From contig JACTUB010000004.1 in assembly GCA_015660885.1 (NCBI GenBank), positions 62,070 to 126,069 of the forward strand: a DNA stretch of 64,000 bases. The letters are read 5' to 3'. Shown here piece by piece: positions 34,903 to 55,165 of the stretch (position 1 is the first letter of the stretch; each line of letters starts with the position of its first letter). The notes under the pieces were generated by a model, which was not told where the DNA came from, did not search any database, and worked only from the letters and a program-made list of their open reading frames with translations. The translations under genes were made by a program, and so were the position numbers. The stretch is from Methanoregulaceae archaeon. Lineage in GTDB: Archaea > Halobacteriota > Methanomicrobia > Methanomicrobiales > Methanospirillaceae.

Positions 34903-37900
34903 TCAACCCTGTTTCAAACGGTAGACTCCCCGTGGCACTATAATTTCGAACCGAGCACCTTCTCCTGCTGTCCCGCCCTCCCTGATAGCAATGCCGGTAA
35001 TACTCAAAATCTCCCGGACAAGGAAAAGTCCGAGCCCGTTGTTTTTCCCGAATCCACGCTCGAAAATCTGGCCCTTTTCAGCATCAGGAACCCCCACGCC
35101 GTCATCTTCCCAGACAAGGATAAGCCCCTGAGGAGTCTGAAGGCATGATATGCTAACCCTTGTTGCCTTTTTACCATGTTGCGCGGTATTGTCAAGAAGG
35201 TTATAAAAAACTTTTTCGAGGAGGGGATCCGCATAAATTTCAACCCCCCGTAAAGCCGATTGTATTGAAATGGATGATGGGATCTCCAAACCCAAGACTA
35301 TCTTGCCTGCATCCTGCCACTGCGGTTCGTGGGCTCCGAGGTCCTGGTAGACACGCGTGAATTCGATCTGCGATTTCATCTCTGTTGTGGCAGATTCCAT
35401 TTTTTCAATAAACATCTGTATCTCCGGAGACTGGGGTTTCTTTTTAATCACTGCAAGGTAACTGAGCATGGCCATGATCTTGTTTAAAATGTCATGCCGG
35501 GTGATACTTGTCATCAGGTTGAGATGACGGTTTACCTGCCTCAAGGCCTCTTCTGCATTCCTGCGATCAGTGACATCACAGAAGGTGCCCTCAACACCGG
35601 CAATCTCCCCACGATCATCCCGGTACACATGGCTGCTTACCTCAACATAAACCGGAGTACCATCACTTTTTTTTAAGGTTATCGGGTAACTTGTAACAAA
35701 GCCCTGCCGGAATATCTCATCAAGTAACTCTTTCCGTAATTCCGGCCTGAACCAGACTGTTTCAGCAATACTTTTTCCGTATAAATCCTCCACTGATTCA
35801 TACTCAAGGAACCGTGCAAATGACGGGCTTGCAAGAATGAGATTCCCCTCCAGATCGCTCTTGTAGAAATAGTCCTGGAAATTCTCAATAACACTCCGGT
35901 AATTCTTCTCGCTCTGTCTAAGAGCCTCTTCTGCTCTCTTACTATCGGTGATGTCCATAACCGTTGCAGTGACACCGGCTGCGAGGTTTGCGGGGTCAAA
36001 CGGGCTCAGGGTCAGCATTACATCGATAATAGTACCGTCTTTTCTCCTGAGGCGGGCTTCTCCTTTGCCTAATCCTTCCCGGTCTATCTGATCGTATATA
36101 TCCTGGCCCGTATCAAAATATGCAGAGTCATCCATGTAGAGCATCCCCGTGCTCTGCCCGATCATTTCCTCCTCGGAATACCCGGTTATCGTGCAGAGCG
36201 ATTGATTTACTCTCTGGAACGCCCGGTTGACCAGAAGCGCGACTCCAACCGGAGTTGCGTTAAGCATGCTTCTTAGTTCTGCTTCCCTTTTCTGCAGCAT
36301 TATCTCGGCCTGCCTGATGTCGGTGATATCCCGACCGACCGACTGGTATTCAGTCAGTACTTTCTGTTCATCAAAAATTACACGGTCAGACCAGCGGTGC
36401 CAGCGGATGGAACCGTCAGGGAGGATGACACGGTGGATAATCGTGGCGACAGGATTTTCCGAGGTGAGCCCCCTGAAATGTTTCGTAACTATCTCCCTGT
36501 CCTCATCGGGTATCTTTGGCACAAACCGCTTCCCGATCAGTTCTTCGCGTCTCATGTTGAAATACCGGCAGTAGGCATCATTGACAAAGACGTGGGTACC
36601 GCCCGGAAGGAAACGGCAGATAAACTCGGTCTGGTCTTCGACAACATTGCGGTACTTCTGTTCGCTCTCGAAAAGGGCTTCTTCTGATCTGATCCGCACT
36701 ATTGCAGCACCAATCTGAGTGGCGATTGTCTCAAGGGCAACACGGGCAGTTGGCGGAATTTCGTCGAGGGTATGGGAGGCAAGATTCATGCATGCAATCA
36801 CCCGGTCTCCGGAAGAAATGGGGATAATCGCACTAGCCCTCAGACCCTCGTGTTCCTCCACACAGCGAAAGGTAATTCCTGACTGATTAAATAAGTCAAA
36901 GATCGGCTTTCCCGTCATGACCATCTCTGCATTCGGAGAACCAGGAGTATAAGAGGAGACGCTACTGACAAATTCATCCCCGAGGTTCTTTGATACAGCA
37001 AGGTCAACCGAGCCTGTCTTTTCGTCAACCATGTATATGCCACCGGAATCCATTCCCGATATCCCGATAGCGGCAGTGAGGCAGGCCTCCAGCGTCGCAT
37101 TCATCTCCCGGGTGGTCTGAAGCGCAAGACCGAGGTCCAGCTGTGCTTTGAGAATGTGTTCCTGCTGTTTGCGGGCAGTGACATCACGGATTGATTCAAT
37201 CGCCCCGACTATCGCTCCTCCCGTATCGTACAGCGGGGATGCGGTAAACCAGAGGGAGGCACCCCTGCCATCATGGAAATGGGGGATCGTAATCTCTGAA
37301 AACAGGTTTTTCCCTTCCCTTGTTATATGCGGGTACCTGGCTGCTGTGGCAGGATCGTCATTAAGGACAAGGTCGATAAGGATGGATCGGCACTCATGGT
37401 AAAACGGGAGTGCGTATTCGTGCTTGCTTTTTCCAAGAATTTCGGATGGTATAATCCCGGTCATCTTCTCCATTGCCCGGTTCCACGCGATCACCACGCC
37501 ATCAGCGTCAATCGCAAACGTTGCATCCGGCAGGAAGTTGAGGATATCTGCCTCACGACGTTCATGGTTGCGGTTGCTCGCTTCAGCACTTCTCCGCTGG
37601 ACTGCCTGCCGGATTTTATGGGAAAGTTCGGCGAACTGTGATTCCGGCTCCCCGCCCTTCTGGAGATAGAAATCTGCCCCGTTATTGATAGCCTGGATCA
37701 CCACTTCCTCGCGCCCCTTGCCGGTGAAAAGGATAAAGGGGAGATCCCCGTGTTTTTTTCTTATGTATTTGAGGAACTCAATGCCGTTCATCCCGGGCAT
37801 TTCGTAGTCCGAGATAATCGCATCGTACTTATTAATGGCAAGTTTGCCCTGAGCGTCCTTAGCAGAGATCACGGTATCAACTCTGATACTACCTTTTTCT

Positions 37901-37947
37901 TCAAGGAAGATCTTGACAATTTCGAGAAGATTTTCATCATCATCCAC
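34903..37947 (-). CDS. Hybrid sensor kinase: REC-PAS-GAF-PAS-PAS-PAS-HisKA-HATPase
   Basis: SDYEMP receiver; several PAS motifs; ITRHDILN H-box; N, G1 and G2 boxes. True start uncertain (see findings). Confidence 0.92.
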   Translation of the reverse strand: MDDDENLLEIVKIFLEEKGSIRVDTVISAKDAQGKLAINKYDAIISDYEMPGMNGIEFLKYIRKKHGDLPFILFTGKGREEVVIQAINNGADFYLQKGGEPESQFAELSHKIRQAVQRRSAEASNRNHERREADILNFLPDATFAIDADGVVIAWNRAMEKMTGIIPSEILGKSKHEYALPFYHECRSILIDLVLNDDPATAARYPHITREGKNLFSEITIPHFHDGRGASLWFTASPLYDTGGAIVGAIESIRDVTARKQQEHILKAQLDLGLALQTTREMNATLEACLTAAIGISGMDSGGIYMVDEKTGSVDLAVSKNLGDEFVSSVSSYTPGSPNAEMVMTGKPIFDLFNQSGITFRCVEEHEGLRASAIIPISSGDRVIACMNLASHTLDEIPPTARVALETIATQIGAAIVRIRSEEALFESEQKYRNVVEDQTEFICRFLPGGTHVFVNDAYCRYFNMRREELIGKRFVPKIPDEDREIVTKHFRGLTSENPVATIIHRVILPDGSIRWHRWSDRVIFDEQKVLTEYQSVGRDITDIRQAEIMLQKREAELRSMLNATPVGVALLVNRAFQRVNQSLCTITGYSEEEMIGQSTGMLYMDDSAYFDTGQDIYDQIDREGLGKGEARLRRKDGTIIDVMLTLSPFDPANLAAGVTATVMDITDSKRAEEALRQSEKNYRSVIENFQDYFYKSDLEGNLILASPSFARFLEYESVEDLYGKSIAETVWFRPELRKELLDEIFRQGFVTSYPITLKKSDGTPVYVEVSSHVYRDDRGEIAGVEGTFCDVTDRRNAEEALRQVNRHLNLMTSITRHDILNKIMAMLSYLAVIKKKPQSPEIQMFIEKMESATTEMKSQIEFTRVYQDLGAHEPQWQDAGKIVLGLEIPSSISIQSALRGVEIYADPLLEKVFYNLLDNTAQHGKKATRVSISCLQTPQGLILVWEDDGVGVPDAEKGQIFERGFGKNNGLGLFLVREILSITGIAIREGGTAGEGARFEIIVPRGVYRLKQG

Positions 37948-38244: not shown

Positions 38245-38766
38245 TCATGATCTCACGGCATCGTCTGGTCTTGAGGCAGATTGATCTGCACGCAAGACTG
38301 CACTGTTCCGATCCTCTCGAACTGCCTGAAGAATTACCTGGCGGAGCTTGTTGAAATTCGTAGCTGAATTTCCTAATTTTTCAACGAATGAAACCTGCCC
38401 GAGCTGTTTTGCATCGTCCTCATACATAGCGACCCGGAACAAAACAAAATACACAAAGGGGATCCTCCCTCCTTTGGCCCGGACATTCCTCAGGAGCTCG
38501 ATCCCTTTCTCCTCTTTGTTGTTATAGTCGGTAACGATTACGTCATAGCATATATACCTCATTTTATTCATCGCTTCTTCGACAGACAGCGATGTATCAA
38601 CCATCATTTCCCCGTCCCTGTCAAGGTACATACAGATCAGGTTAGCCAGTGCCGGAGTATCATCGACATAAAGTACTGATATTGTTCTGGTATCACCGGT
38701 GTCTGGACCAGACCCTGAAAAAGGAGGGGTGGTGGGAAGTGTTTCCGATCCGTTCCACGTTACCAT
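38245..38766 (-). CDS. Stand-alone atypical receiver-domain protein
   Basis: ISVLYVDD...VIVTDY...VEK. Confidence 0.8.
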   Translation of the reverse strand: MVTWNGSETLPTTPPFSGSGPDTGDTRTISVLYVDDTPALANLICMYLDRDGEMMVDTSLSVEEAMNKMRYICYDVIVTDYNNKEEKGIELLRNVRAKGGRIPFVYFVLFRVAMYEDDAKQLGQVSFVEKLGNSATNFNKLRQVILQAVREDRNSAVLRADQSASRPDDAVRS

Positions 38767-38793: not shown

Positions 38794-39396
38794 TTATGCT
38801 GCGACTTCCCCCGTCTCAAGGGTTGTCATATCCAGCTTGACGCTCTCATCCGTTACAAGCCGCTTGATATCGATGAGGATCAGGAGTTCATGTGCATCCC
38901 GGTCCTTGATCCTGATCTTCTTTTTGATAATCCCGATGATGGCAGAATTGTTCTGTTCCACCATTGACGTACTGGTATCTACCGCAGAACGATCAAAGGT
39001 CGTCACCGAAGATACATTATCAACCATGATGCCGGTTTTGGATTCCGTGATGCTGTCGTCGAGAACGATTATCCGGCTGTTTTCATCGGTAGCTCCTGGT
39101 TGCCGGGTAATGTTCAAGCGTTCCTTCAGGTCGATTATTGTAGTTATTTCACCTCGTAAGTCAATTATTCCCTTGATATATGCAGGGGTATCGGGAAGCT
39201 GGGTTATTGTTTTGTACTCAACAACTTCCCTGACATTGAACAGGTCAACGGCAAAGTGTTCTTTGCCCAGCAGGAACTCCACGACCTGAACCGTGTTTGA
39301 ACCTGATTCCAGTCCTCCCTGCACAGCTCCTCTGCTGACGCGCTTTGCGGAAACCGGGAGGGGATTTCCGGTTTTTCCATTCGTATTCGGTTGCAT
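38794..39396 (-). CDS. cheW: Chemotaxis coupling protein CheW (copy 1)
   Basis: VVEFLLG, IKGIIDLRGEI; start set at ATG 39396 after GAGG. Confidence 0.93.
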   Translation of the reverse strand: MQPNTNGKTGNPLPVSAKRVSRGAVQGGLESGSNTVQVVEFLLGKEHFAVDLFNVREVVEYKTITQLPDTPAYIKGIIDLRGEITTIIDLKERLNITRQPGATDENSRIIVLDDSITESKTGIMVDNVSSVTTFDRSAVDTSTSMVEQNNSAIIGIIKKKIRIKDRDAHELLILIDIKRLVTDESVKLDMTTLETGEVAA

Positions 39397-39420
39397 GATC
39401 AGACCTCGCAAAGACTGCGT

Positions 39421-42400
39421 TTACGCGGCTCGCGCCGTGCTGGAGGACCCGCCTTTGGAGATCCGGTCGATAGTAACGGGTGATTCCTCGCCACTGTCTG
39501 CTGCGAAAGCATCCTCAGAAGCACTGTCATCAGAACCTGCCTTGATCCTGAATTTTGAGACCTCTTTTGTTACCTGGTCAGCAATGACGGTCACATTCTG
39601 GACTATCTTGGTGATCTGGTCGATCGCTGCAGAAGATTCCTCGCTTGCTGCTGCCGAGTCGGTTGCCTCCTTTGCGGTATCATTGACAAGTGCGTTGACC
39701 TCGTTCACGCTCGCAGTCACTTCCTCGACAGAAGCAGCCTGTTCTTCTGCAGATGCCGCCACGTCATTGATATTCCTGTTGATCTCATCGATTGAGGCAA
39801 CAATCTTGTTGAACACTTCAAGGGTCTGGGACAGTGCGACTCCGCCTTCCTTAACTTCACCACTTGACTTTTCAACGTTCTCCACTGCACGCTGTGTCTG
39901 TTTCTGGAGATCACCGATCATGAGGCGGATTTTCGCTGCAGAGTTCTCAGATTCTTCAGCCAGTGATTTAACTTCGGTTGCTACAACGGCAAACCCGCGG
40001 CCCGCCTCACCAGCACGGGCTGCTTCAATGGCTGCGTTCAGGGCAAGCAGGTTGGTCTGATTGGCAAGGTTGGCGATGAGAACTACGATATCCCCGATCT
40101 TGTCCATCTGGGATTTGATATCGAGGATGATCTCGTTGACTTCTGTTGAAGACTTGGTTATCCCGACCATTCCCTTATCTGCCTTGGAGGCAAGGTCCGA
40201 TCCCGTCTGGGACAGTTCCTCGGATTTCTTTGCGATCTGGGCAACAGCTTCTGCCTTTGTCGCAACTTCCTGGACTGTGGTTGACAGGTCTTCCATTGCC
40301 TTGAGGACCTGCTTGATTCCCTCACCGCTCTTTTCAGCATTCAGGCTTACGGCACCGGCATTCTTGGCGATCTGGGCTGAGCCGGCCGATACTTCTTCGA
40401 CGCTTGCAGTGGCTTCCTGTGCTCCCGCGGAAAGCTGGTTTATCTGCTGGTTCACCTTAAGAAGTGCCTTGGAGACCTGGACACCGACATTGTTCAAAGA
40501 TTTCTTGAATTTGGTAAAGTCTCCCTGTACCTGGAGGCGGTTGTCATACCGTGCGGTAAAGTCAGCCTTTGCATAAGTGTCAGCGACCCTCATTGCCTCG
40601 TTAAGCGGCCCGGTGACCGCATCAAGGGTCTCATTTACCCCCTCAATGATCTTCTGGTATTCCCCCTGGTGCCGTGCCGCATCAGCACGGGTGGCAAGTT
40701 TTCCTGCCACTGCTGCATCGGATAGCATATTTGCGTCTTTTGTCAGGTTCTGAAGCGCGTCAAATGTCCTGATAAATGACGGTACTAAGCGGTCTCCCTC
40801 CGATCGTTTTGCAATCTTGCGGTACACGTCGGCTTCTGACAGGTCACCGTTACTGATCCTGACAAGGGATTCCGTCACATGATTGACCCGTTCCCTGACC
40901 AGATTCACTGACATCTTGATATCGGCAAAGACGCCCATATAGTTCCCCTCAACGCCTTTTGAATGGTCATTGACGGCCATCCGCTTGAGAACTTCGCTTG
41001 CTTCGATGAGCCCGCCAAGACCGTCGATACACTGGTTTAAGTTGTTCTTGATCTCGTTGAAATCGCCCTTGTACTGGTCGGTGATCTTTGCCGGGATATC
41101 CCCTTTGCTGATACGGTCCATGTACTCGGCGGCAACATTGAGCGGTCCGATGACCGAGTCGAGCGTATTGTTGACACCTTCAATGATCTTCCTGAAGTCG
41201 CCCTGGTGCTTGGATGCATCGGCACGGACATCGAGTTTACCATCCACTGCAGCGACCGAGAGCATCTTTGCGTCCCTGACAAGCAGGTTGACCGCGTCGA
41301 TGCACTGGTTTAAGTTGTTCTTGATCTCGTTGAAATCGCCCTTGTACTGGTCGGTGATCTTTGCCGGGACATCCCCCTTGCTGATCCGGTCCATGTACTC
41401 GGCAGCCATGTTCAGCGGGCCGATGATCGCATCAAGCGTGTGGTTGACCCCTTCGATGGTCTTCCGGAAGTCTCCCTGGTGCTTGGATGCATCGGCACGG
41501 ATATCGAGTTTGCCTTCAACCGAACCTGCTGCTAACGTCTGCGTATCCCTGACAAGCAGGTTGATTGCATCGATACACTGGTTTAAGTTGTTCTTGATCT
41601 CGTTGAAGTCGCCCTTGTACTGGTCGGTAATTTTTGCCGGGACATCCCCCTTGCTGATCCGGTCCATGTACTCGGCAGTCATATTCAGCGGGCCGATAAT
41701 CGCATCGAGTGTGTTATTGATGCCTACCACAATTTCTTTATATCCTCCATTGAATTTGTCCGCTTTGCCCCGGACATCCAGTTTGCCATCTGCCCCCGCC
41801 TCGGTGAGCATCTTGGTTTCGGTGACAAGCCCCTGAAGCGAGCTCACCGTGTTCATAAGTGCCGGAGTAATCTCGTCCTGGGGGTCCTTTGCCATGAGCA
41901 TAACATTCAGGTCGCCATCAGCGATCTTTTTCATGGAGCCAACCACATTCTTCTGGAGATCCTCTGAGAACATGTCCATCGTGACTGCCATCTCACCGAT
42001 CTCATCCTTACGGGACAACTTCATCCGGTGACCAAGATGGCCTTTGCTGAGTTCGTCAAGATTCCGTTTGACATCATCAATCGGGCCGGTAATGCTCTTT
42101 GAGAGGTAGAGGGCCAGTACAACTCCTGCAATGACGCCAAAGACAGTTGCAATGATCATCAATAAGGTTGCGGTCGCAGTTGCGTCAGCAGTGTCCTTGG
42201 CAAGTTTTTCCGATGCCGTAAAAGTACTCGTAACAAGCGTCTTAAGGGCTGCAAGAGTATCGGTCCGTGCCATAATAACTGGACTGCTTGCTGCAAGACC
42301 CTCATCGACTGCTTTCATGTCGTTTGCATCAGCATCCTTCTGGAGTTTCTGGTAGCCTGCCTGCATATCTGACCAGGACGCATCGAATTTTGCCAGTGTC

Positions 42401-42735
42401 GCCTTGTCTCCATCCGACATGGGCCGTGCACGGAATTCTTTCATCTGGTCATTGATAGTCGCTACCTGGGCACTTAGCGAAGCCCCGGTTGCCTGCCGGT
42501 CTGACGGGACATAAATATACCGGTAAACATCTCCCCGCATCTTTTCCATGGCCGCATTTGCCGTAGCCAGATTATCGGCCGAAACCATTTTTTCATTATA
42601 CATCACATCCTGGTTTGCTTTTGCATTCTGGAGATTTACGTAACCCAATGCTGCAACTGCAACAAGGATAAGCAGAACTACAAGAAACCCACCGAGGAGT
42701 TTTTTCCCGATTTTCATGTCATCAACAAACTTCAT
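39421..42735 (-). CDS. Membrane methyl-accepting chemotaxis protein (4HB sensor, poly-HAMP)
   Basis: Two TMs flanking a four-helix sensor; HAMP arrays; [27 protein letters not shown] tip; start set at ATG 42735. Confidence 0.95.
41017..41835 (-). repeat. Three tandem 273-bp (91 aa) intragenic HAMP-pair repeats
   Basis: I/V-I-GPLN unit starts at 41700, 41427 and 41154, exactly 273 bp apart. Confidence 0.9.
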
Positions 42736-42969
42736 TTCTTTCGCCACCGTTTTTGAATAACCATAAATTTTTAAATGCCTGCGGAACCGGATTATAATCC
42801 AGTGTCCCGTCAATGTTTGTCCTGCAGTCAATGCAATCAGAAACCATGTCAGTTCCTGACAGCTGGTCGTTAAGATCCGGCCAGCTTGTGTTTAATTCCG
42901 TGCTGGTTCTGGTTTTTCCCATGTTCATCTCCATTTTACCTGTTTGACAAATATCCCGTAGTAAGCCGG

Positions 42970-43575
42970 TTACCCGAGAGATATCATTGGCTGTTTGTAT
43001 ACCTCATTCATAACCTGTCCCAAGCCCGTGTACATCGCGGCGAGCCCACAGATTACGCCGTCAACGCCGGCAACCTGTAAAATTGCGACATTCCCAAAGG
43101 CATTACCCGCGATCAAAAGCAGGAACAGGATCGTGAGGAGTCCGAAAACAACCTGCAACGCTTTTGACAGTTTCAGGGTAATGACAAACATTACAAAAGC
43201 GAACAACCCCCATATCGTGAGGAATGATACGAATGCTGCTGTAGGCATCGGATCACTCAGCCCAAGCTTCGGCAGGAGAATCATGCTCACGAGTGATATC
43301 CAGAAAAAGCCAAACGCAATGAACGCGGTTGTACCGAACGTATTGTTCTTCTTCCATTCCATAATTCCGGCGATAATCTGTGCAATACCCCCGAAAAATA
43401 TCCCCATCGCAAAGATAGTGGATCCCAGCCCAAAGAACCCGGCATTGTGCAGGTTCAGAAGCACCGTAGTCATGCCGAATGCCAGAAGCCCCAGTGGTGC
43501 CGGGTTTGCAGTTACATCCGCAATTCTGACGTCTTTTGTTAACTCTCTTCCAATATTTTCCATTTCATCCTCCAA
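42970..43575 (-). CDS. satP: Acetate uptake transporter, GPR1/FUN34/YaaH family
   Basis: ANPAPLGLLAFGMTT signature; six TMs. Confidence 0.93.
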   Translation of the reverse strand: MEDEMENIGRELTKDVRIADVTANPAPLGLLAFGMTTVLLNLHNAGFFGLGSTIFAMGIFFGGIAQIIAGIMEWKKNNTFGTTAFIAFGFFWISLVSMILLPKLGLSDPMPTAAFVSFLTIWGLFAFVMFVITLKLSKALQVVFGLLTILFLLLIAGNAFGNVAILQVAGVDGVICGLAAMYTGLGQVMNEVYKQPMISLG

Positions 43576-44395: not shown

Positions 44396-46036
44396 ATGGT
44401 AAGAGAAAGCGAGCAGGAAAGAATTAGGGAATTACTGAAGATCAACCCGAAAGGCCTGTCAATAGAAGAAGTATCCCAAAAGCTCAAACTTAACCGCGCA
44501 ACTGCCGCAAAATACCTTAATTCTCTTGTCATGTCCGGACAGGCAGACATGAGGAACCTCGGACCCGCAAAATTATTTTATCTTACCCACCGGCTTACCT
44601 TACCAAACCTGCTCAGTCTAGCAACAGATATGATACTAATCCTGGATAACGATCTTTTCATCCAGGAAGTAAATGATCCTTTTCTTTCCTGTTTTCATCT
44701 CAAAAAACCGGAACTCAAAGGGAAAAAAATAGAACACTCGGTATTGGCACGCTATATAACCCGCGACCACCTGGATGCTATTGCAAAGGCGCTCGAAGGC
44801 CAGGAACAGGCTTTCGATGTACACTTTGACGGCCTCAAAGAAGATCGTTTTTTCAAAATGAAATGTATCCCGCTGGTATTTGAAGAGGGGGGTCGGGCTG
44901 TCGGGATCCTCCTTGAGGATATCACTGAAATAAAAAAATACCAGCAGGATCTTGAAGAACAGGTCAGGCAACGGACTGCTGAACTGATCAGGACAAATGA
45001 CGCGTTGCGGGAGAGCGAGTACCGGTTCAGGCAGGTTACCGAAAACGCAGAAGAATGGATTTGGGAAATGGATGAAGAGGGCGTGTATCGCTACAGCAGT
45101 CAGGCCGTCGAGAGGATCCTGGGGTATTCTCCCGGGGAGCTGGTTCAGCAGAAGCATTTTTATGATCTCTTTGAACCAGGAATGCGGGAGGACCTGAAGA
45201 AATCGGCTCTTACTATTATTGAACACAAAGAACTATTCCAGCATTTCATCAATTCAAACGTCCATAAAAACGGCAGCATCGTCATTCTTGAAAAGAGCGG
45301 TTCCCCGATACTTAATGAAAAGGGAGATCTCACAGGTTACCGTGGAACTGATATGAATATAACTGAACGCAAGAGGGCAGAGGATGCAATAAAAAAGGCA
45401 AACAAGCAGATCATCCTGTTAAACAGCGTTACCCGTCACGATATTATCAACCAGCTCAACACGCTGACGGGGTACCTCGGCATCATGAAAAAACTACAGA
45501 ACAACGAGAAAATTGCCGACCTTATCGGGACCGAACAGCAGATTGCCGAAACAATCCGCCGCCAGATTACATTCACCAGGGATTACCAGAATATTGGTGT
45601 ACAGCCACCGCAGTGGATTGCGGTGAATGTTACGATTTTAAAGGTGCTGACGACAATGGATTTGGGATCCGTTTCGGTCGGCGTCGACAGCAGCTCACTG
45701 GAAATTTATACCGACCTCCTTATAGAGAAAGTCTTTTTCAATCTTATCGACAATTCCCTCCGCCATGGTGAGCATGTCACACAGATCCGTATCGGGTTCA
45801 GGAAGGAAGAGAATGGTCTTTCCATCATCTACGAGGATGACGGTATCGGGGTACCGGACCAAGAGAAAGAACGGATTTTCGAGCGAGGGTTCGGCAAAAA
45901 TACCGGTTACGGATTGTTCCTTGTGCGTGAAATCCTTTCCATTACCGGCCTTGCGATAAAAGAAACGGGTGTCTATAAAAAAGGGATATGTTTTGAAATT
46001 TTTGTTCCCCAAGGACTTTATCGATTCTCCAGTTAA
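44396..46036 (+). CDS. HTH-PAS-PAS histidine kinase
   Basis: LSIEEVSQKLKLNRATAAKYL HTH; two PAS domains; VTRHDIIN H-box; HATPase boxes. Confidence 0.92.
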   Translation: MVRESEQERIRELLKINPKGLSIEEVSQKLKLNRATAAKYLNSLVMSGQADMRNLGPAKLFYLTHRLTLPNLLSLATDMILILDNDLFIQEVNDPFLSCFHLKKPELKGKKIEHSVLARYITRDHLDAIAKALEGQEQAFDVHFDGLKEDRFFKMKCIPLVFEEGGRAVGILLEDITEIKKYQQDLEEQVRQRTAELIRTNDALRESEYRFRQVTENAEEWIWEMDEEGVYRYSSQAVERILGYSPGELVQQKHFYDLFEPGMREDLKKSALTIIEHKELFQHFINSNVHKNGSIVILEKSGSPILNEKGDLTGYRGTDMNITERKRAEDAIKKANKQIILLNSVTRHDIINQLNTLTGYLGIMKKLQNNEKIADLIGTEQQIAETIRRQITFTRDYQNIGVQPPQWIAVNVTILKVLTTMDLGSVSVGVDSSSLEIYTDLLIEKVFFNLIDNSLRHGEHVTQIRIGFRKEENGLSIIYEDDGIGVPDQEKERIFERGFGKNTGYGLFLVREILSITGLAIKETGVYKKGICFEIFVPQGLYRFSS

Positions 46037-46313: not shown

Positions 46314-46907
46314 TCATTTATTTTTCCTGACATTTCTCAGGGATTCCTTTAAAATTTCGTTACACCCGTCAAAAAGGGGGGGGCCGTGTCCAAAATATAT
46401 GGACCGGATATCTCTGCTGCAGAGGGTTTCCAGTGCACTGATGAATTCCGGTTCGTACGTACCATCAGTGGTTCGGATCACAAGGGGCGTATCCCCGGAA
46501 AAAAGGACACCCTCCTGCCAGCAGTAAAGGCAGATCGAATCATTACTGTGTCCGGGAGTAGAGATAATTTCAAAATCCCTGTCACCCACTCTTACATTTT
46601 CCCCCCCTTTTAGTATAACATCCACTCCCTCAAGAAAAGGAGAGGCAGCACGAACAACAGGATTGAACATGTCACAGATAAGCGGCAGGAGCGTTACATG
46701 ATCATAATGGCTGTGGGTGAGAATTACCTGCTCTACTCTTTTTTTACCAACCCCTGTTGAAGCTGCCATAAGTCCGGTAAGGATTGCCGGGTCCCTCCCG
46801 GTATCGATGAGCGTGTTCATGTCAGAAAGGGCATTCCATGTCCCGGTAACGAGGTAAACGTTGGAAGTGTATTGCGTTCCTTTTGTAAAAAGGTTAAGGA
46901 TTTTCAT
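46314..46907 (-). CDS. Metallo-beta-lactamase-fold hydrolase
   Basis: THSHYDH, TPGHS, FSGDT and FGHG metal-ligand motifs. Confidence 0.92.
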   Translation of the reverse strand: MKILNLFTKGTQYTSNVYLVTGTWNALSDMNTLIDTGRDPAILTGLMAASTGVGKKRVEQVILTHSHYDHVTLLPLICDMFNPVVRAASPFLEGVDVILKGGENVRVGDRDFEIISTPGHSNDSICLYCWQEGVLFSGDTPLVIRTTDGTYEPEFISALETLCSRDIRSIYFGHGPPLFDGCNEILKESLRNVRKNK

Positions 46908-47521
46908 TGTTGTGCGGAAATTTTTTTAAAGATCTGGGCATTGGCTGCAACCGGTTCAAAATAGCGTTCCATTTCGGCAGGTAATTTCTGGGTCTGTTCG
47001 GTGATAAGGAAACACCCGTCATCAAGGGCATCATAAAACATCCTGTATACCTTAAGCCTCTCCTCATCATTGAAGTGGAGCAGGACATTTTTACAGACAA
47101 TAAGACCCATGCTCTGGCGGACTGGCTGGAATGTCAGCAGGTCGTGTTTTTCAAAGATCAGTCTCCTCCTGATCTCTTCTGCAATTTTCCAGTTGCCGGG
47201 TTTTTGTTCATCAGGAGAAAAATATGTTGAAAATATATCCTGAGGGATCCTTTCCAGTTCCTGTCTTGCGTAACTTCCTTCTTCGATTATCTTTGCAAAT
47301 AAGTTACTGATATCAATATCTGTACAATAGATCTTCACATTCCGGAAGATCATCGGTCCCATATTCTCACGAAGCATGATAGCAATGGTATACGGTTCCT
47401 GCCCCATTGCACACCCGGCACTCCAGATATTTATATACCTCCTGCTGCCGATTACCGGGAGAATAAACTCACGGATCATTTCAAGGGTCTGGTAGTCGCG
47501 GAAGAAGTAAGTAAAGGCCAT
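46904..47521 (-). CDS. cheR: CheR-type SAM methyltransferase lacking the N-terminal domain
   Basis: TYFFRD at residue 4; WSAGCAMGQEPYT, TDID and CKNVLLHF motifs. Confidence 0.88.
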   Translation of the reverse strand: MAFTYFFRDYQTLEMIREFILPVIGSRRYINIWSAGCAMGQEPYTIAIMLRENMGPMIFRNVKIYCTDIDISNLFAKIIEEGSYARQELERIPQDIFSTYFSPDEQKPGNWKIAEEIRRRLIFEKHDLLTFQPVRQSMGLIVCKNVLLHFNDEERLKVYRMFYDALDDGCFLITEQTQKLPAEMERYFEPVAANAQIFKKISAQQ

Positions 47522-47666
47522 TTTCTGATCCCGTTCTTAATATTTTGGATATAATAGATGTATGAACCTATTCCCTGATCCGACACCAACCTTCTGATTG
47601 GAATCGATACTTCCCGAAAGGAGATTTCCTGTGTAGTAAGGTGCAGAAACAAGGTTCATCCCCGTA

Positions 47667-54370: not shown

Positions 54371-55165
54371 ATGGATAGTTTTCAAGCACTGAAAAAATTC
54401 ATTGAACAGACACTGGGAATCCAGTGTTCAAATTATAAAGAAGATTACATAAAGCGGCGCCTTCTCTCACGGATGCGATCGACCGGTAGCGCGACATATG
54501 AAGATTATCTCGGATATCTGAAAGCGAACCCGCCGGAACTGGAGAGCCTGCGTAATGCACTTACCATCAACGTTACTGAATTTTTCCGGGATAACGATGT
54601 CTATGAGTTTATGAGAAAAGATATCTTACCCGCGTTACTCAAACAAAGAAAACGGGTTCGGATATGGTGTGCCGGGTGTTCAACCGGAGAAGAGCCATAT
54701 TCCATCGCCATGATACTCTCGGAACTCCTGGCACATAACCCGGGTATTTCTGCCCAGATCATTGCAACAGATATTGACAAAGTTGTTCTTGCAAAAGCTC
54801 AGGAGGGTATCTATTCCTCAAAAGCGATGGTCAAATTATCTGAAACGCAAATCCGCCGCCATTTCACCAAGCTCCCTGATGGCAATTTCCAGGTCAAATC
54901 ACACCTTAAAGAACTGATACGGTTCCGCCCTCATGACCTGATGAGCGGTGTCCCTGTTTCCCAATGGCTTGATCTCATTACCTGCCGGAACGTAACAATC
55001 TATTTCAACGAGAAACAAAAGGACGAACTGGCAAGAATGTTCCATGGGGCACTGGTATCCAAGGGGTTCTATATTATGGGTAAAACGGAATATCTTGGAC
55101 GAACACTGGAGAATCTGTTCGAATCCTATAATTCCCTCCAGAAAATCTTTATTAAAAAGGATTGA
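54371..55165 (+). CDS. cheR: Chemotaxis methyltransferase CheR, full length
   Basis: YIKRRL N-domain; LTINVTEFFRD, WCAGCSTGEEPYS and CRNVTIYF motifs. Confidence 0.96.
   Translation: MDSFQALKKFIEQTLGIQCSNYKEDYIKRRLLSRMRSTGSATYEDYLGYLKANPPELESLRNALTINVTEFFRDNDVYEFMRKDILPALLKQRKRVRIWCAGCSTGEEPYSIAMILSELLAHNPGISAQIIATDIDKVVLAKAQEGIYSSKAMVKLSETQIRRHFTKLPDGNFQVKSHLKELIRFRPHDLMSGVPVSQWLDLITCRNVTIYFNEKQKDELARMFHGALVSKGFYIMGKTEYLGRTLENLFESYNSLQKIFIKKD

What the first reader, a model, noticed from the sequence alone, without database searches (positions are those of the whole stretch)
46314..47521. N-terminally truncated CheR translationally coupled to an MBL-fold hydrolase
Seen: this CheR begins at the TxFFRD motif, so it lacks the helical N-domain present in the CheR at 54371. 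It overlaps an intact MBL hydrolase gene by 4 nt. The pair faces an HTH-PAS kinase and sits back-to-back with the ParA operon region. Established: canonical demethylation is done by CheB, which is already present. Inference: a separate writer/eraser pair (methyltransferase plus esterase or phosphodiesterase) acting on a non-canonical substrate.
Basis: partly seen in the sequence, partly recalled or inferred. Interest (0 to 1): 0.55.

Follow-up and report, generated by a model that had tools for sequence, protein, structure and literature searches.

The report
Short CheR–hydrolase pair for poly-HAMP receptors
A shortened chemotaxis methyltransferase and a small metal-dependent hydrolase form a conserved, apparently undescribed gene pair that occurs in methanogens and anaerobic bacteria with one unusual class of chemotaxis receptor, which suggests that these receptors carry a second chemical-modification system.

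Summary
Window 46904-47521(-) encodes a 205-aa CheR with only the SAM-binding domain. It starts at MAFTYFFRD and an in-frame stop lies five codons upstream. It overlaps by ATGA a 197-aa MBL-fold gene (46314-46907) that keeps every metal ligand.

The linkage is conserved. Every MBL orthologue I found has a short CheR upstream on the same strand: 30/30 loci across Archaea and Bacteria, and 12/12 in a 301-genome phylum sample. A natural fused protein exists. The reverse does not always hold. One Methanosarcinaceae genus has the short CheR followed by a small GNAT-like gene instead.

The constant partner is a poly-HAMP chemoreceptor, often with a CheW. It is adjacent in 16/30 loci and present in 21/22 short-CheR genomes, against 9/279 of the others. 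In bacteria the pair sits inside che operons next to normal CheR and CheB.

The short CheR keeps the catalytic Arg and the SAM motifs but has an invariant His where canonical CheR has the catalytic Tyr.

The "separate writer/eraser" idea is partly supported. It is an accessory of chemosensory arrays, not an unrelated system, and the eraser role of the MBL is untested. I found no paper describing it. Earlier agents in this scan noted the same pair in other genomes.

The parts
46904..47521 (-). Short CheR (sCheR), 205 aa. It has the CheR SAM-binding domain with the beta-subdomain but no N-terminal all-alpha domain. The catalytic Arg (R8) is kept and His149 replaces the canonical Tyr.
   Evidence: AF2 model pLDDT 91.1. 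The best fold matches are CheR structures, including the isolated C-terminal domain of CheR1 (5xlx, TMt 0.83).
46314..46907 (-). Minimal MBL-fold metallo-hydrolase, 197 aa, with invariant H65, H67, D69, H70, H120, D139 and H174.
   Evidence: AF2 model pLDDT 94.9. The nearest folds are small glyoxalase-II-like MBLs (3adr, 1xm8, 2xf4, 4ad9, 4ysb).
46904..46907 (-). ATGA stop/start overlap, which implies translational coupling.
   Evidence: Sequence. The same overlap or short gaps occur in orthologous loci.
47522..47666 (-). Intergenic region upstream of sCheR with an A/T-rich TATA-like stretch about 30-40 nt before the ATG. It is a probable own promoter (inference).
   Evidence: Sequence read. 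No transcript data are available.
39421..42831 (-). Poly-HAMP chemoreceptor, 1136 aa: 4HB_MCP sensor, HAMP, HAMP_2 array and MCP signalling domain. It is the likely partner or target class of the module.
   Evidence: The equivalent MCP lies within about 3 kb of the pair in G020 and G027.
38794..39411 (-). CheW gene directly downstream of the poly-HAMP receptor.
   Evidence: PF01584, 4.1e-29. A CheW lies next to sCheR or the poly-HAMP MCP in many related loci.
38245..38766 (-). Receiver-domain protein downstream of that CheW.
   Evidence: PF00072, 1.5e-09. It is conserved in G020.
44396..46036 (+). PAS-PAS histidine kinase with a weak N-terminal HTH, convergent with the pair. It keeps this position in three Methanomicrobiales genomes.
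54371..55165 (+). Canonical full-length CheR (CheR_N + CheR), used for comparison.
28670..29713 (+). Canonical CheB (receiver domain + methylesterase).

Best explanation
The two genes are one member of a conserved, horizontally mobile accessory module of chemosensory pathways that use poly-HAMP chemoreceptors.

Shown: the short CheR is a distinct, monophyletic CheR subfamily. It consists only of the catalytic SAM domain plus the beta-subdomain. It keeps the TxFFRD arginine and the SAM-binding motifs, and it has an invariant His in place of the catalytic Tyr. The MBL is a minimal glyoxalase-II-like metallo-hydrolase with a complete metal site, and it is never found without a short CheR immediately upstream.

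Inferred: the two proteins work as a complex, because they are translationally coupled and occur naturally fused. Lacking the receptor-docking N-domain, the short CheR probably reaches the array through CheW or the receptor. There the pair would carry out a second reversible covalent modification on the poly-HAMP receptor or an array partner. Most simply, sCheR would methyl-esterify a carboxylate and the MBL would hydrolyse the ester. This would run in parallel with the canonical CheR/CheB adaptation pair.

My confidence that it is a poly-HAMP/chemosensory accessory module is about 0.85. My confidence in the specific writer/eraser chemistry is about 0.35.
For: Linkage:
- All nine relatives with an sCheR orthologue of at least 49% identity have the MBL directly downstream.
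- 30/30 loci recovered with the MBL profile, from Methanomicrobiales, Methanosarcinales, ANME-2, Syntrophomonadaceae, Spirochaetota, Desulfobacterales, Bacillota, Myxococcota and Bacteriovoracaceae, have an sCheR upstream on the same strand. None of 50 more distant MBLs does.
- 12/12 in the phylum sample.
- P0160 is a single-chain sCheR+MBL protein, 48% identical to each part, with 5 member sequences.
- Both families are monophyletic with the same shallow groups and mixed domains of life.

Context:
- The Syntrophomonas locus L038 reads CheA-CheW-sCheR-MBL-polyHAMP MCP-CheR-CheB.
- A poly-HAMP MCP lies within 4 kb in 16/30 loci.
- All 5 tested genomes without such adjacency still carry strong poly-HAMP arrays.
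- In 301 genomes, 21 have sCheR and poly-HAMP, 1 has sCheR only (an 82%-complete genome), 9 have poly-HAMP only and 270 have neither.
- In the window the poly-HAMP MCP, CheW and receiver gene lie 3.5 kb away.

Active sites:
- sCheR residues T4, F6, R8, D9, W33, A35, G36, G40, E42, Y44, D68, D70, C143, K144, V146, H149 and F150 are invariant in 32 sequences.
- The seven MBL metal ligands are invariant in 38 sequences.

Precedent: R79 and Y218 of T. denticola CheR (the Arg and Tyr discussed here) are described as essential for receptor methylation (PMC7666581).
Against: - No biochemical data exist for either protein.
- The catalytic Tyr is replaced by His, so activity or substrate may differ from CheR.
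- The MBL is not universal. Nine genomes of one Methanosarcinaceae genus have polyHAMP MCP-CheW-sCheR followed by a small GNAT-like gene and no MBL. G027 has a tandem sCheR pair without an MBL. An obligate writer/eraser pairing is therefore not required.
- Nine genomes have poly-HAMP receptors without sCheR.
- Di-HAMP units of receptors with and without sCheR have the same consensus, so no candidate target site emerged.
- In Methanospirillum the pair sits among dnaK, dnaJ, a receiver-domain gene, a methyltransferase gene and glycosyltransferase genes, with no che genes within 4 kb.
- Related genomes are not independent samples, so the counts overstate the statistics.
Confidence: 0.5

Rival explanations
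1. The module has a non-catalytic or sensory role. The short CheR would be a SAM-binding structural or adaptor component of the array, like the CheR-like domain of spirochaete CheW-CheRlike. The MBL-fold protein would be a metal, redox or oxygen sensor, like ODP, feeding signals to the poly-HAMP receptor.
For: - There is no N-terminal domain and the catalytic Tyr is replaced.
- CheW is often the gene directly before sCheR, and one metagenomic protein reads CZB-CheW-sCheR. This mirrors the CheW-CheRlike fusion, which binds SAM and stabilises arrays (PMC7666581).
- There are weak Pfam ODP matches: P0001 19.7 bits, and 28.6 bits for one relative, P0017.
- Cys126 of the MBL is nearly invariant.
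Against: - The catalytic Arg that CheW-CheRlike has lost (R79W) is invariant here, and the whole active-site region is the most conserved part of the protein.
- The metal motif is the hydrolase-type HxHxDH. The nearest sequences and folds are glyoxalase-II-like enzymes.
- P0001 scores below the ODP cut-off (19.7 against 27.2).
- The alternative partners, GNAT and an HDAC-like deacetylase, are enzymes.
Confidence: 0.2
2. The pair acts on a substrate outside chemotaxis, either a small-molecule carboxylate or another protein. Its position near che genes would then reflect co-transfer or co-regulation only.
For: - The Methanospirillum loci have no che genes nearby.
- In Methanoregula the pair is separated from the receptor by a kinase gene and an acetate-channel gene.
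- Esterase and methyltransferase pairs for small carboxylates are known in metabolism (my own knowledge, e.g. BioC/BioH).
Against: - The pair sits inside che operons in at least nine bacterial loci from several phyla.
- Genome-level co-occurrence with poly-HAMP receptors is 21/22 against 9/279.
- Fusions or read-throughs link sCheR to CheW and to an MCP sensor domain.
- sCheR is nested in the CheR family, whose known members methylate proteins.
Confidence: 0.15
3. The two enzymes work in sequence rather than in opposition. The MBL would prepare or process the substrate (for example by deamidation, or by removing another group) so that sCheR can methylate it, as CheD does for CheR. Alternatively it would remove a by-product.
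For: Tight 1:1 coupling and natural fusion suit a channelled two-step reaction at least as well as a futile write/erase cycle. CheD-type preparation of methylation sites is an established precedent (my own knowledge).
Against: MBL-fold amidases are uncommon (my own knowledge). Fused writer/eraser CheB-CheR proteins are also known from database domain architectures (my own knowledge). I did not run Pfam on the ~1000-aa CheR-containing frames seen in relatives, so these data do not show it. Nothing in the sequences distinguishes the two orders of action.
Confidence: 0.12

Closest known systems
Canonical CheR/CheB adaptation pair (e.g. Salmonella CheR 1AF7/1BC5, B. subtilis CheR 5FTW)
   Same: The catalytic SAM domain and beta-subdomain have the same fold (TMq about 0.8). 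The TxFFRD arginine and the SAM motifs are kept. The methyltransferase gene is directly followed by a hydrolase gene, within chemosensory gene neighbourhoods.
   Different: There is no N-terminal all-alpha receptor-docking domain. An invariant His replaces the catalytic Tyr. The partner is an MBL-fold metalloenzyme, not a receiver-domain serine methylesterase. The pair occurs in addition to CheR and CheB in the same operons.
CheW-CheRlike of Spirochaetia F2 chemotaxis systems (T. denticola TDE1492; PMC7666581)
   Same: It is a CheR-type domain without the classical enzyme's architecture, associated with CheW and chemosensory arrays. In many loci here CheW is the gene immediately upstream of sCheR.
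   Different: That domain is fused to CheW and has lost both key residues (R79W, Y218F), so it is thought to be non-catalytic. Here the protein stands alone, the Arg is invariant, Tyr is replaced by His, and an MBL partner is attached. I did not test sequence kinship to that domain.
Small glyoxalase-II-like MBL hydrolases (YcbL 2XF4, A. thaliana GLX2 1XM8, ST1585 3ADR, LACTB2 4AD9)
   Same: The alpha-beta/beta-alpha fold and the complete HxHxDH...H...D...H metal site.
   Different: Only 18-24% identity. It scores far below the NCBIfam glyoxalase II cut-offs (56.6 against 200.8). At 197 aa it is shorter than true glyoxalase II (about 250-260 aa). It has an obligatory short-CheR neighbour.
ODP, the MBL-fold di-iron oxygen sensor of T. 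denticola chemotaxis (mentioned in PMC7666581)
   Same: It is an MBL-fold protein recruited to a chemosensory pathway. There are weak Pfam ODP matches.
   Different: P0001 is below the ODP cut-off. The motif is HxHxDH, as in hydrolases. The nearest sequences and folds are hydrolases.
Chemoreceptor-type poly-HAMP arrays (PMC13446029)
   Same: The receptor near the pair carries the described repeated di-HAMP units upstream of a methyl-accepting domain.
   Different: That paper's text contains no mention of CheR or lactamase. The link between these arrays and a dedicated short CheR appears to be unreported.

Membership tests
CheR protein-glutamate O-methyltransferase (canonical) | C-terminal SAM-dependent methyltransferase domain (PF01739) | tested here: met
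   PF01739 at 1.4e-40, profile positions 2-192 of 195. Fold matches to CheR structures at TMq 0.80-0.83.
CheR protein-glutamate O-methyltransferase (canonical) | N-terminal all-alpha domain (PF03705) that docks on receptor methylation helices | tested here: not met
   There is no CheR_N hit. The protein starts at the FFRD motif with an in-frame stop upstream. This holds in all 32 orthologues.
CheR protein-glutamate O-methyltransferase (canonical) | Catalytic Arg of the TxFFR motif | tested here: met
   R8 is invariant in 32/32 sequences.
CheR protein-glutamate O-methyltransferase (canonical) | Catalytic Tyr of the (I/V)YF motif | tested here: not met
   His149 in 32/32 sequences. Canonical CheRs have Tyr, as in the window's own CheR and B. 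subtilis CheR 5FTW. The residue's essentiality is taken from PMC7666581.
CheR protein-glutamate O-methyltransferase (canonical) | Methylation of receptor glutamates | not testable with these tools
   This needs an in vitro or in vivo methylation assay.
NCBIfam CheR equivalog (NF007902) | Score above the curated cut-off | tested here: not met
   59.4 bits against a cut-off of 435. The window's canonical CheR also scores below it, at 149 bits.
Metallo-beta-lactamase superfamily | MBL fold with HxHxDH, a distal His, a bridging Asp and a final His | tested here: met
   PF00753 at 1.2e-18. H65, H67, D69, H70, H120, D139 and H174 are invariant in 38 sequences. The model has pLDDT 94.9 and MBL fold matches.
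Glyoxalase II (hydroxyacylglutathione hydrolase) | Equivalog-level similarity, including the C-terminal substrate-binding part | tested here: not met
   TIGR03413 scores 56.6 bits against a cut-off of 200.8, and only profile positions 23-128 of 248 are matched. The protein is 197 aa.
ODP family (PF19583) | Pfam score above the gathering threshold | tested here: not met
   19.7 bits against 27.2 for P0001. One relative, P0017, just passes at 28.6 bits.
CheW-CheRlike (spirochaete F2) | CheW domain fused N-terminally to a CheR-like domain that has lost its catalytic Arg and Tyr | tested here: not met
   The protein stands alone and the Arg is retained. Only gene adjacency to CheW, and one metagenomic CZB-CheW-sCheR protein, resemble that architecture.
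Short CheR-MBL module (defined here) | MBL orthologue immediately downstream of a short CheR on the same strand | tested here: met
   The window has an ATGA overlap. The arrangement holds in 30/30 and 12/12 loci elsewhere.
Short CheR-MBL module (defined here) | A poly-HAMP chemoreceptor in the same genome, usually nearby | tested here: met
   The window MCP 39421-42831 has a HAMP_2 array. 21/22 sCheR genomes are positive.

The most novel reading that the evidence does not exclude
Poly-HAMP chemoreceptors would have their own covalent-modification system, independent of CheR and CheB. A docking-domain-less CheR with a His-for-Tyr active site would be recruited through CheW or the array and would write a mark on the receptor or an array partner, possibly on the HAMP rod. 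A dedicated MBL hydrolase would remove it. In some lineages a GNAT and HDAC-like acetylation pair accompanies or replaces the MBL. This would be a second adaptation or tuning layer, and it would give poly-HAMP arrays a function.
Probability: 0.3. Interest if true: 0.8.

Novelty: new variant of a known kind. Interest (0 to 1): 0.6.

Why it matters
Adaptation by CheR and CheB is regarded as the universal covalent feedback of chemotaxis. The purpose of long poly-HAMP arrays in chemoreceptors is still unknown.

This work describes a distinct CheR subfamily of at least 2,600 sequence clusters, currently annotated only as "CheR family methyltransferase". It lacks the receptor-docking domain and has a changed catalytic residue. 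It tracks poly-HAMP receptors across Archaea and Bacteria and comes with its own hydrolase. That provides a concrete experimental handle on both questions.

The module is present in cultured organisms. Source records name Methanogenium organophilum, M. cariaci, Methanolobus sp. and Clostridium gelidum for the short CheR. The full pair was found in Methanospirillum stamsii and in a complete genome the size of Methanoregula boonei 6A8. The proteins are small and model with high confidence, so the hypothesis can be tested directly.

The pair also appears to move between syntrophic bacteria and methanogens as a unit.

Tried and rejected
1. A local truncation or pseudogene of CheR is rejected. The start at FFRD is conserved in all orthologues, and the family is monophyletic and under selection.
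2. I looked for a target signature in the HAMP rod. Di-HAMP units from receptors of genomes with sCheR (77 units) and without it (10 units) have the same consensus, so the test could not discriminate.
3. I looked for a shared C-terminal tether on the neighbouring receptors. Bacterial ones end in a D-x-x-F-x-[KR]-[YFI] tail and one Methanosarcinaceae genus ends in EH[AI]LV. The window's receptor and those of G020 and G027 have no such tail, so this is not a general feature.
4. I considered a natural loss experiment in G008. Its MBL is split by a 1-nt deletion in a T-run, and the neighbouring poly-HAMP MCP, CheW and receiver genes are missing. The genome is a 70-contig, 91%-complete assembly, so a sequencing error cannot be excluded. 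I give this no weight.
5. I searched for fused forms of the MBL among the best 150 of 1.84 billion representatives and found none. The fusion turned up only in the search for longer relatives of sCheR.
7. Five literature searches found no description of the pair.
8. Isoelectric points of the two families are not basic (medians 6.5 and 5.8). This gives no support to the idea that the MBL replaces the basic docking helix of CheR.
9. The ESM Atlas gave only generic "MBL fold metallo-hydrolase" clusters.
Full report
**Observation.** The window carries two overlapping minus-strand genes, 46904-47521 (205 aa) and 46314-46907 (197 aa). The stop of the first overlaps the start of the second as ATGA. 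The first protein matches only the SAM-binding domain of CheR (PF01739, 1.4e-40) and has no CheR_N domain. The CheR at 54371-55165 has both domains. An in-frame TAA five codons upstream rules out a longer reading frame. The second protein is an MBL-fold protein (PF00753, 1.2e-18) with the complete HxHxDH...H...D...H metal site. It scores far below the curated cut-offs for glyoxalase II, beta-lactamases and lactonases. The convergent neighbour is a PAS-PAS histidine kinase with only weak HTH hits. CheB is present at 28670-29713. The genome has just these two CheR-domain genes. It is 2.52 Mb, and an earlier agent called it a Methanoregula. A same-genus complete genome in the sample has exactly the size I recall for M. 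boonei 6A8.

**Is the linkage conserved?** Yes, in one direction strictly.
- Among 41 relatives, all nine genomes with a short-CheR orthologue of at least 49% identity have the MBL orthologue directly downstream on the same strand.
- A profile of the MBL family recovered 30 orthologous loci from a collection holding one genome for each of 185,579 species. They come from Methanoregula, Methanospirillum, Methanogenium, Methanosarcina and ANME-2. They also come from Syntrophomonadaceae, other Bacillota, Spirochaetota including Leptospirales, Desulfobacterales, Myxococcota and Bacteriovoracaceae.
- All 30 have a ~200-aa CheR starting at the FFRD motif upstream on the same strand. In 27 it is adjacent, and in 3 one 206-210-aa ORF of unknown function lies between. 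None of 50 more distant MBL genes has one.
- In a 301-genome sample of the phylum, all 12 genomes with the MBL show the same arrangement.
- The MBL family is small: 52 representatives at E<=1e-30 among 1.84 billion, nearly all 190-215 aa.
- A 406-aa protein with five member sequences joins the two parts in one chain. It is 48% identical to each, and the stop is simply missing at the junction.
- Both families are monophyletic against their nearest relatives (SH-aLRT 99). They share the same shallow groups, and archaeal and bacterial sequences are interleaved, so the pair moves as a unit.

**The reverse direction is not strict.** The short CheR family is much larger, with at least 2,607 clusters at 90% identity and E<=1e-30. 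In the phylum sample 22 genomes have it but only 12 have the MBL. Nine of the ten exceptions belong to one Methanosarcinaceae genus. There the order is polyHAMP MCP, CheW, short CheR, then a ~110-aa gene. That gene is homologous to the GNAT-type gene found in other loci, although Pfam did not detect GNAT in the copy I scanned. One relative, G027, also has a tandem short-CheR pair without an MBL, again behind a poly-HAMP MCP and a CheW. Other variants are two short CheRs plus one MBL (Methanosarcina, G027), one short CheR plus two MBLs (Methanospirillum), and a tandem duplicate of the whole pair (G039).

**What accompanies it.** Clustering the neighbours of the 30 loci and scanning representatives against Pfam shows that the bacterial loci are che operons. 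Syntrophomonas L038 reads CheA, CheW, short CheR, MBL, MCP, full-length CheR, CheB. Desulfobacula L046 reads MCP, short CheR, MBL, HDAC-like deacetylase, small GNAT, full-length CheR, CheD, CheY. The MCPs next to the pair are consistently poly-HAMP receptors with 3-8 strong HAMP_2 matches. With an HMM of the di-HAMP unit from the window's receptor, 16 of the 30 loci have such a receptor within the 4-kb flanks, usually as the next gene. All five genomes tested among the loci without adjacency still carry strong poly-HAMP arrays elsewhere, whereas none of 14 control genomes does at the same threshold.

In the 301-genome sample the counts are:

| | poly-HAMP | no poly-HAMP |
|---|---|---|
| short CheR | 21 | 1 (an 82%-complete genome) |
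| no short CheR | 9 | 270 |

In the window the poly-HAMP receptor (39421-42831) is followed by its own CheW and a receiver protein, and lies 3.5 kb from the pair. The same layout, with a PAS kinase gene in between, is seen in G020 and G027. These genomes are related, so the counts are not independent trials. Even so, the pattern recurs in at least eight archaeal genera and several bacterial phyla.

**What the proteins look like.**
- *Short CheR.* The model (pLDDT 91.1) superposes on CheR structures, and best on the isolated C-terminal domain of CheR1. The TxFFRD motif with its Arg, the WSAGC-x-G-x-EPY motif, the DID motif and the CKNVLLHF motif are invariant or nearly so in 32 sequences. The Tyr of the canonical (I/V)YF motif is His in all 32. 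This Arg and Tyr are the two residues described as essential for receptor methylation, and both are lost in the non-catalytic CheR-like domain of spirochaete CheW-CheRlike (PMC7666581). The short CheR keeps one of the two and its active-site region is highly conserved. That argues for a working enzyme with altered chemistry or substrate.
- *MBL.* The model (pLDDT 94.9) is a minimal MBL fold closest to small glyoxalase-II-like enzymes at 18-24% identity. All seven metal ligands are invariant in 38 sequences. The ODP family, an MBL-fold chemotaxis oxygen sensor, gives only a sub-threshold match for this protein.

**Interpretation.** The data show a conserved accessory module of chemosensory systems that use poly-HAMP receptors. 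Its core is the short CheR. The MBL is its dedicated partner in many lineages, including this one. A GNAT and an HDAC-like deacetylase are additional or alternative partners.

My working model is inferred, not shown. The short CheR lacks the N-domain that docks canonical CheR on receptor helices, so it probably reaches the array through CheW or the receptor. CheW is often the preceding gene, and one metagenomic protein reads CZB-CheW-short CheR. There it would methylate a carboxylate on the receptor or an array partner, and the MBL would hydrolyse the ester. This would act beside CheR and CheB.

There are three rivals: a structural or sensory role by analogy with CheW-CheRlike and ODP, a substrate outside chemotaxis, and sequential rather than opposing action of the two enzymes. 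I could not find a target signature. Di-HAMP units are the same with or without the short CheR, and C-terminal receptor tails are conserved only within sub-groups.

**Novelty.** Five full-text searches found no description of a short CheR-MBL pair, or of a CheR linked to poly-HAMP arrays. The recent poly-HAMP paper mentions neither CheR nor lactamase. Database names are generic. Earlier agents of this scan noted the same pair, and the deacetylase-GNAT-MBL-short CheR set, in three other genomes and also judged it undescribed. My results agree and add four points: the poly-HAMP association, the lineage with a short CheR but no MBL, the natural fusions, and the invariant Tyr-to-His change. I file it as a new variant of a known kind, namely chemosensory adaptation-type enzymes.

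**Limits.** No multimer prediction was possible. I did not determine the chemosensory class of the associated CheA.

Noticed in passing
L046:2612-3712; also L034, L036, L051, L052, L053: An HDAC-like deacetylase gene (PF00850) and a ~110-aa GNAT gene sit directly beside the short CheR-MBL pair in several che clusters. A metagenomic protein (P0159) fuses short CheR to a GNAT. This suggests an acetylation layer in the same module.
   Followed up: partly
L117-L120 (one Methanosarcinaceae genus, g58): The gene order is polyHAMP MCP, CheW, short CheR, small GNAT-like gene, then a 417-aa CYTH + HD-type phosphohydrolase, next to PPK2. No MBL orthologue was found in these nine genomes.
   Followed up: partly
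L034:2821-3441, L036:3360-3992, L061: A 206-210-aa ORF with no Pfam match is inserted between the short CheR and the MBL in three loci (Methanosarcinales and Desulfobacteraceae). It could be a further partner.
   Followed up: no
C-termini of the MCPs in L035, L038, L041, L049, L053 and in L117-L120: Bacterial poly-HAMP receptors next to the pair end in a long linker plus a conserved tail, D-x-x-F-x-[KR]-[YFI]. Those of genus g58 end in EH[AI]LV. These may be tether motifs for adaptation enzymes. The window's receptor has no such tail.
   Followed up: partly
L113:13560-14155 (G008, 92% identical short CheR): The MBL gene is split by a 1-nt deletion in a T-run, and the neighbouring poly-HAMP MCP, CheW and receiver genes of the window are missing there. 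This is either real decay or an assembly error in a 70-contig genome.
   Followed up: partly
L054-L059 (Methanospirillum); G039 (L009); L050, L058, L121 (Methanosarcina): The copy number of the parts varies: two tandem MBL paralogues after one short CheR, a tandem duplicate of the whole pair, or two short CheR paralogues before one MBL.
   Followed up: partly
window 44396-46036(+); L114:6845-8524; L115:5507-7807: A PAS kinase or PAS protein with a weak N-terminal HTH keeps its place between the poly-HAMP receptor and the pair in three Methanomicrobiales genomes. It may regulate or belong to the module.
   Followed up: partly
window 42970-43575(-): A GPR1/FUN34/YaaH-family (acetate channel-like) gene lies between the poly-HAMP receptor and the kinase gene.
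   Followed up: no
window 46590-46610 and 46370-46400 (minus strand of the MBL gene): The MBL gene contains G7 (7-nt) and C8 (8-nt) homopolymer runs. Such runs are prone to slippage or sequencing error.
   Followed up: no
window 34903-37947(-): A 1014-aa receiver-PAS-GAF-PAS histidine kinase lies just beyond the receptor-CheW-receiver gene group.
   Followed up: no
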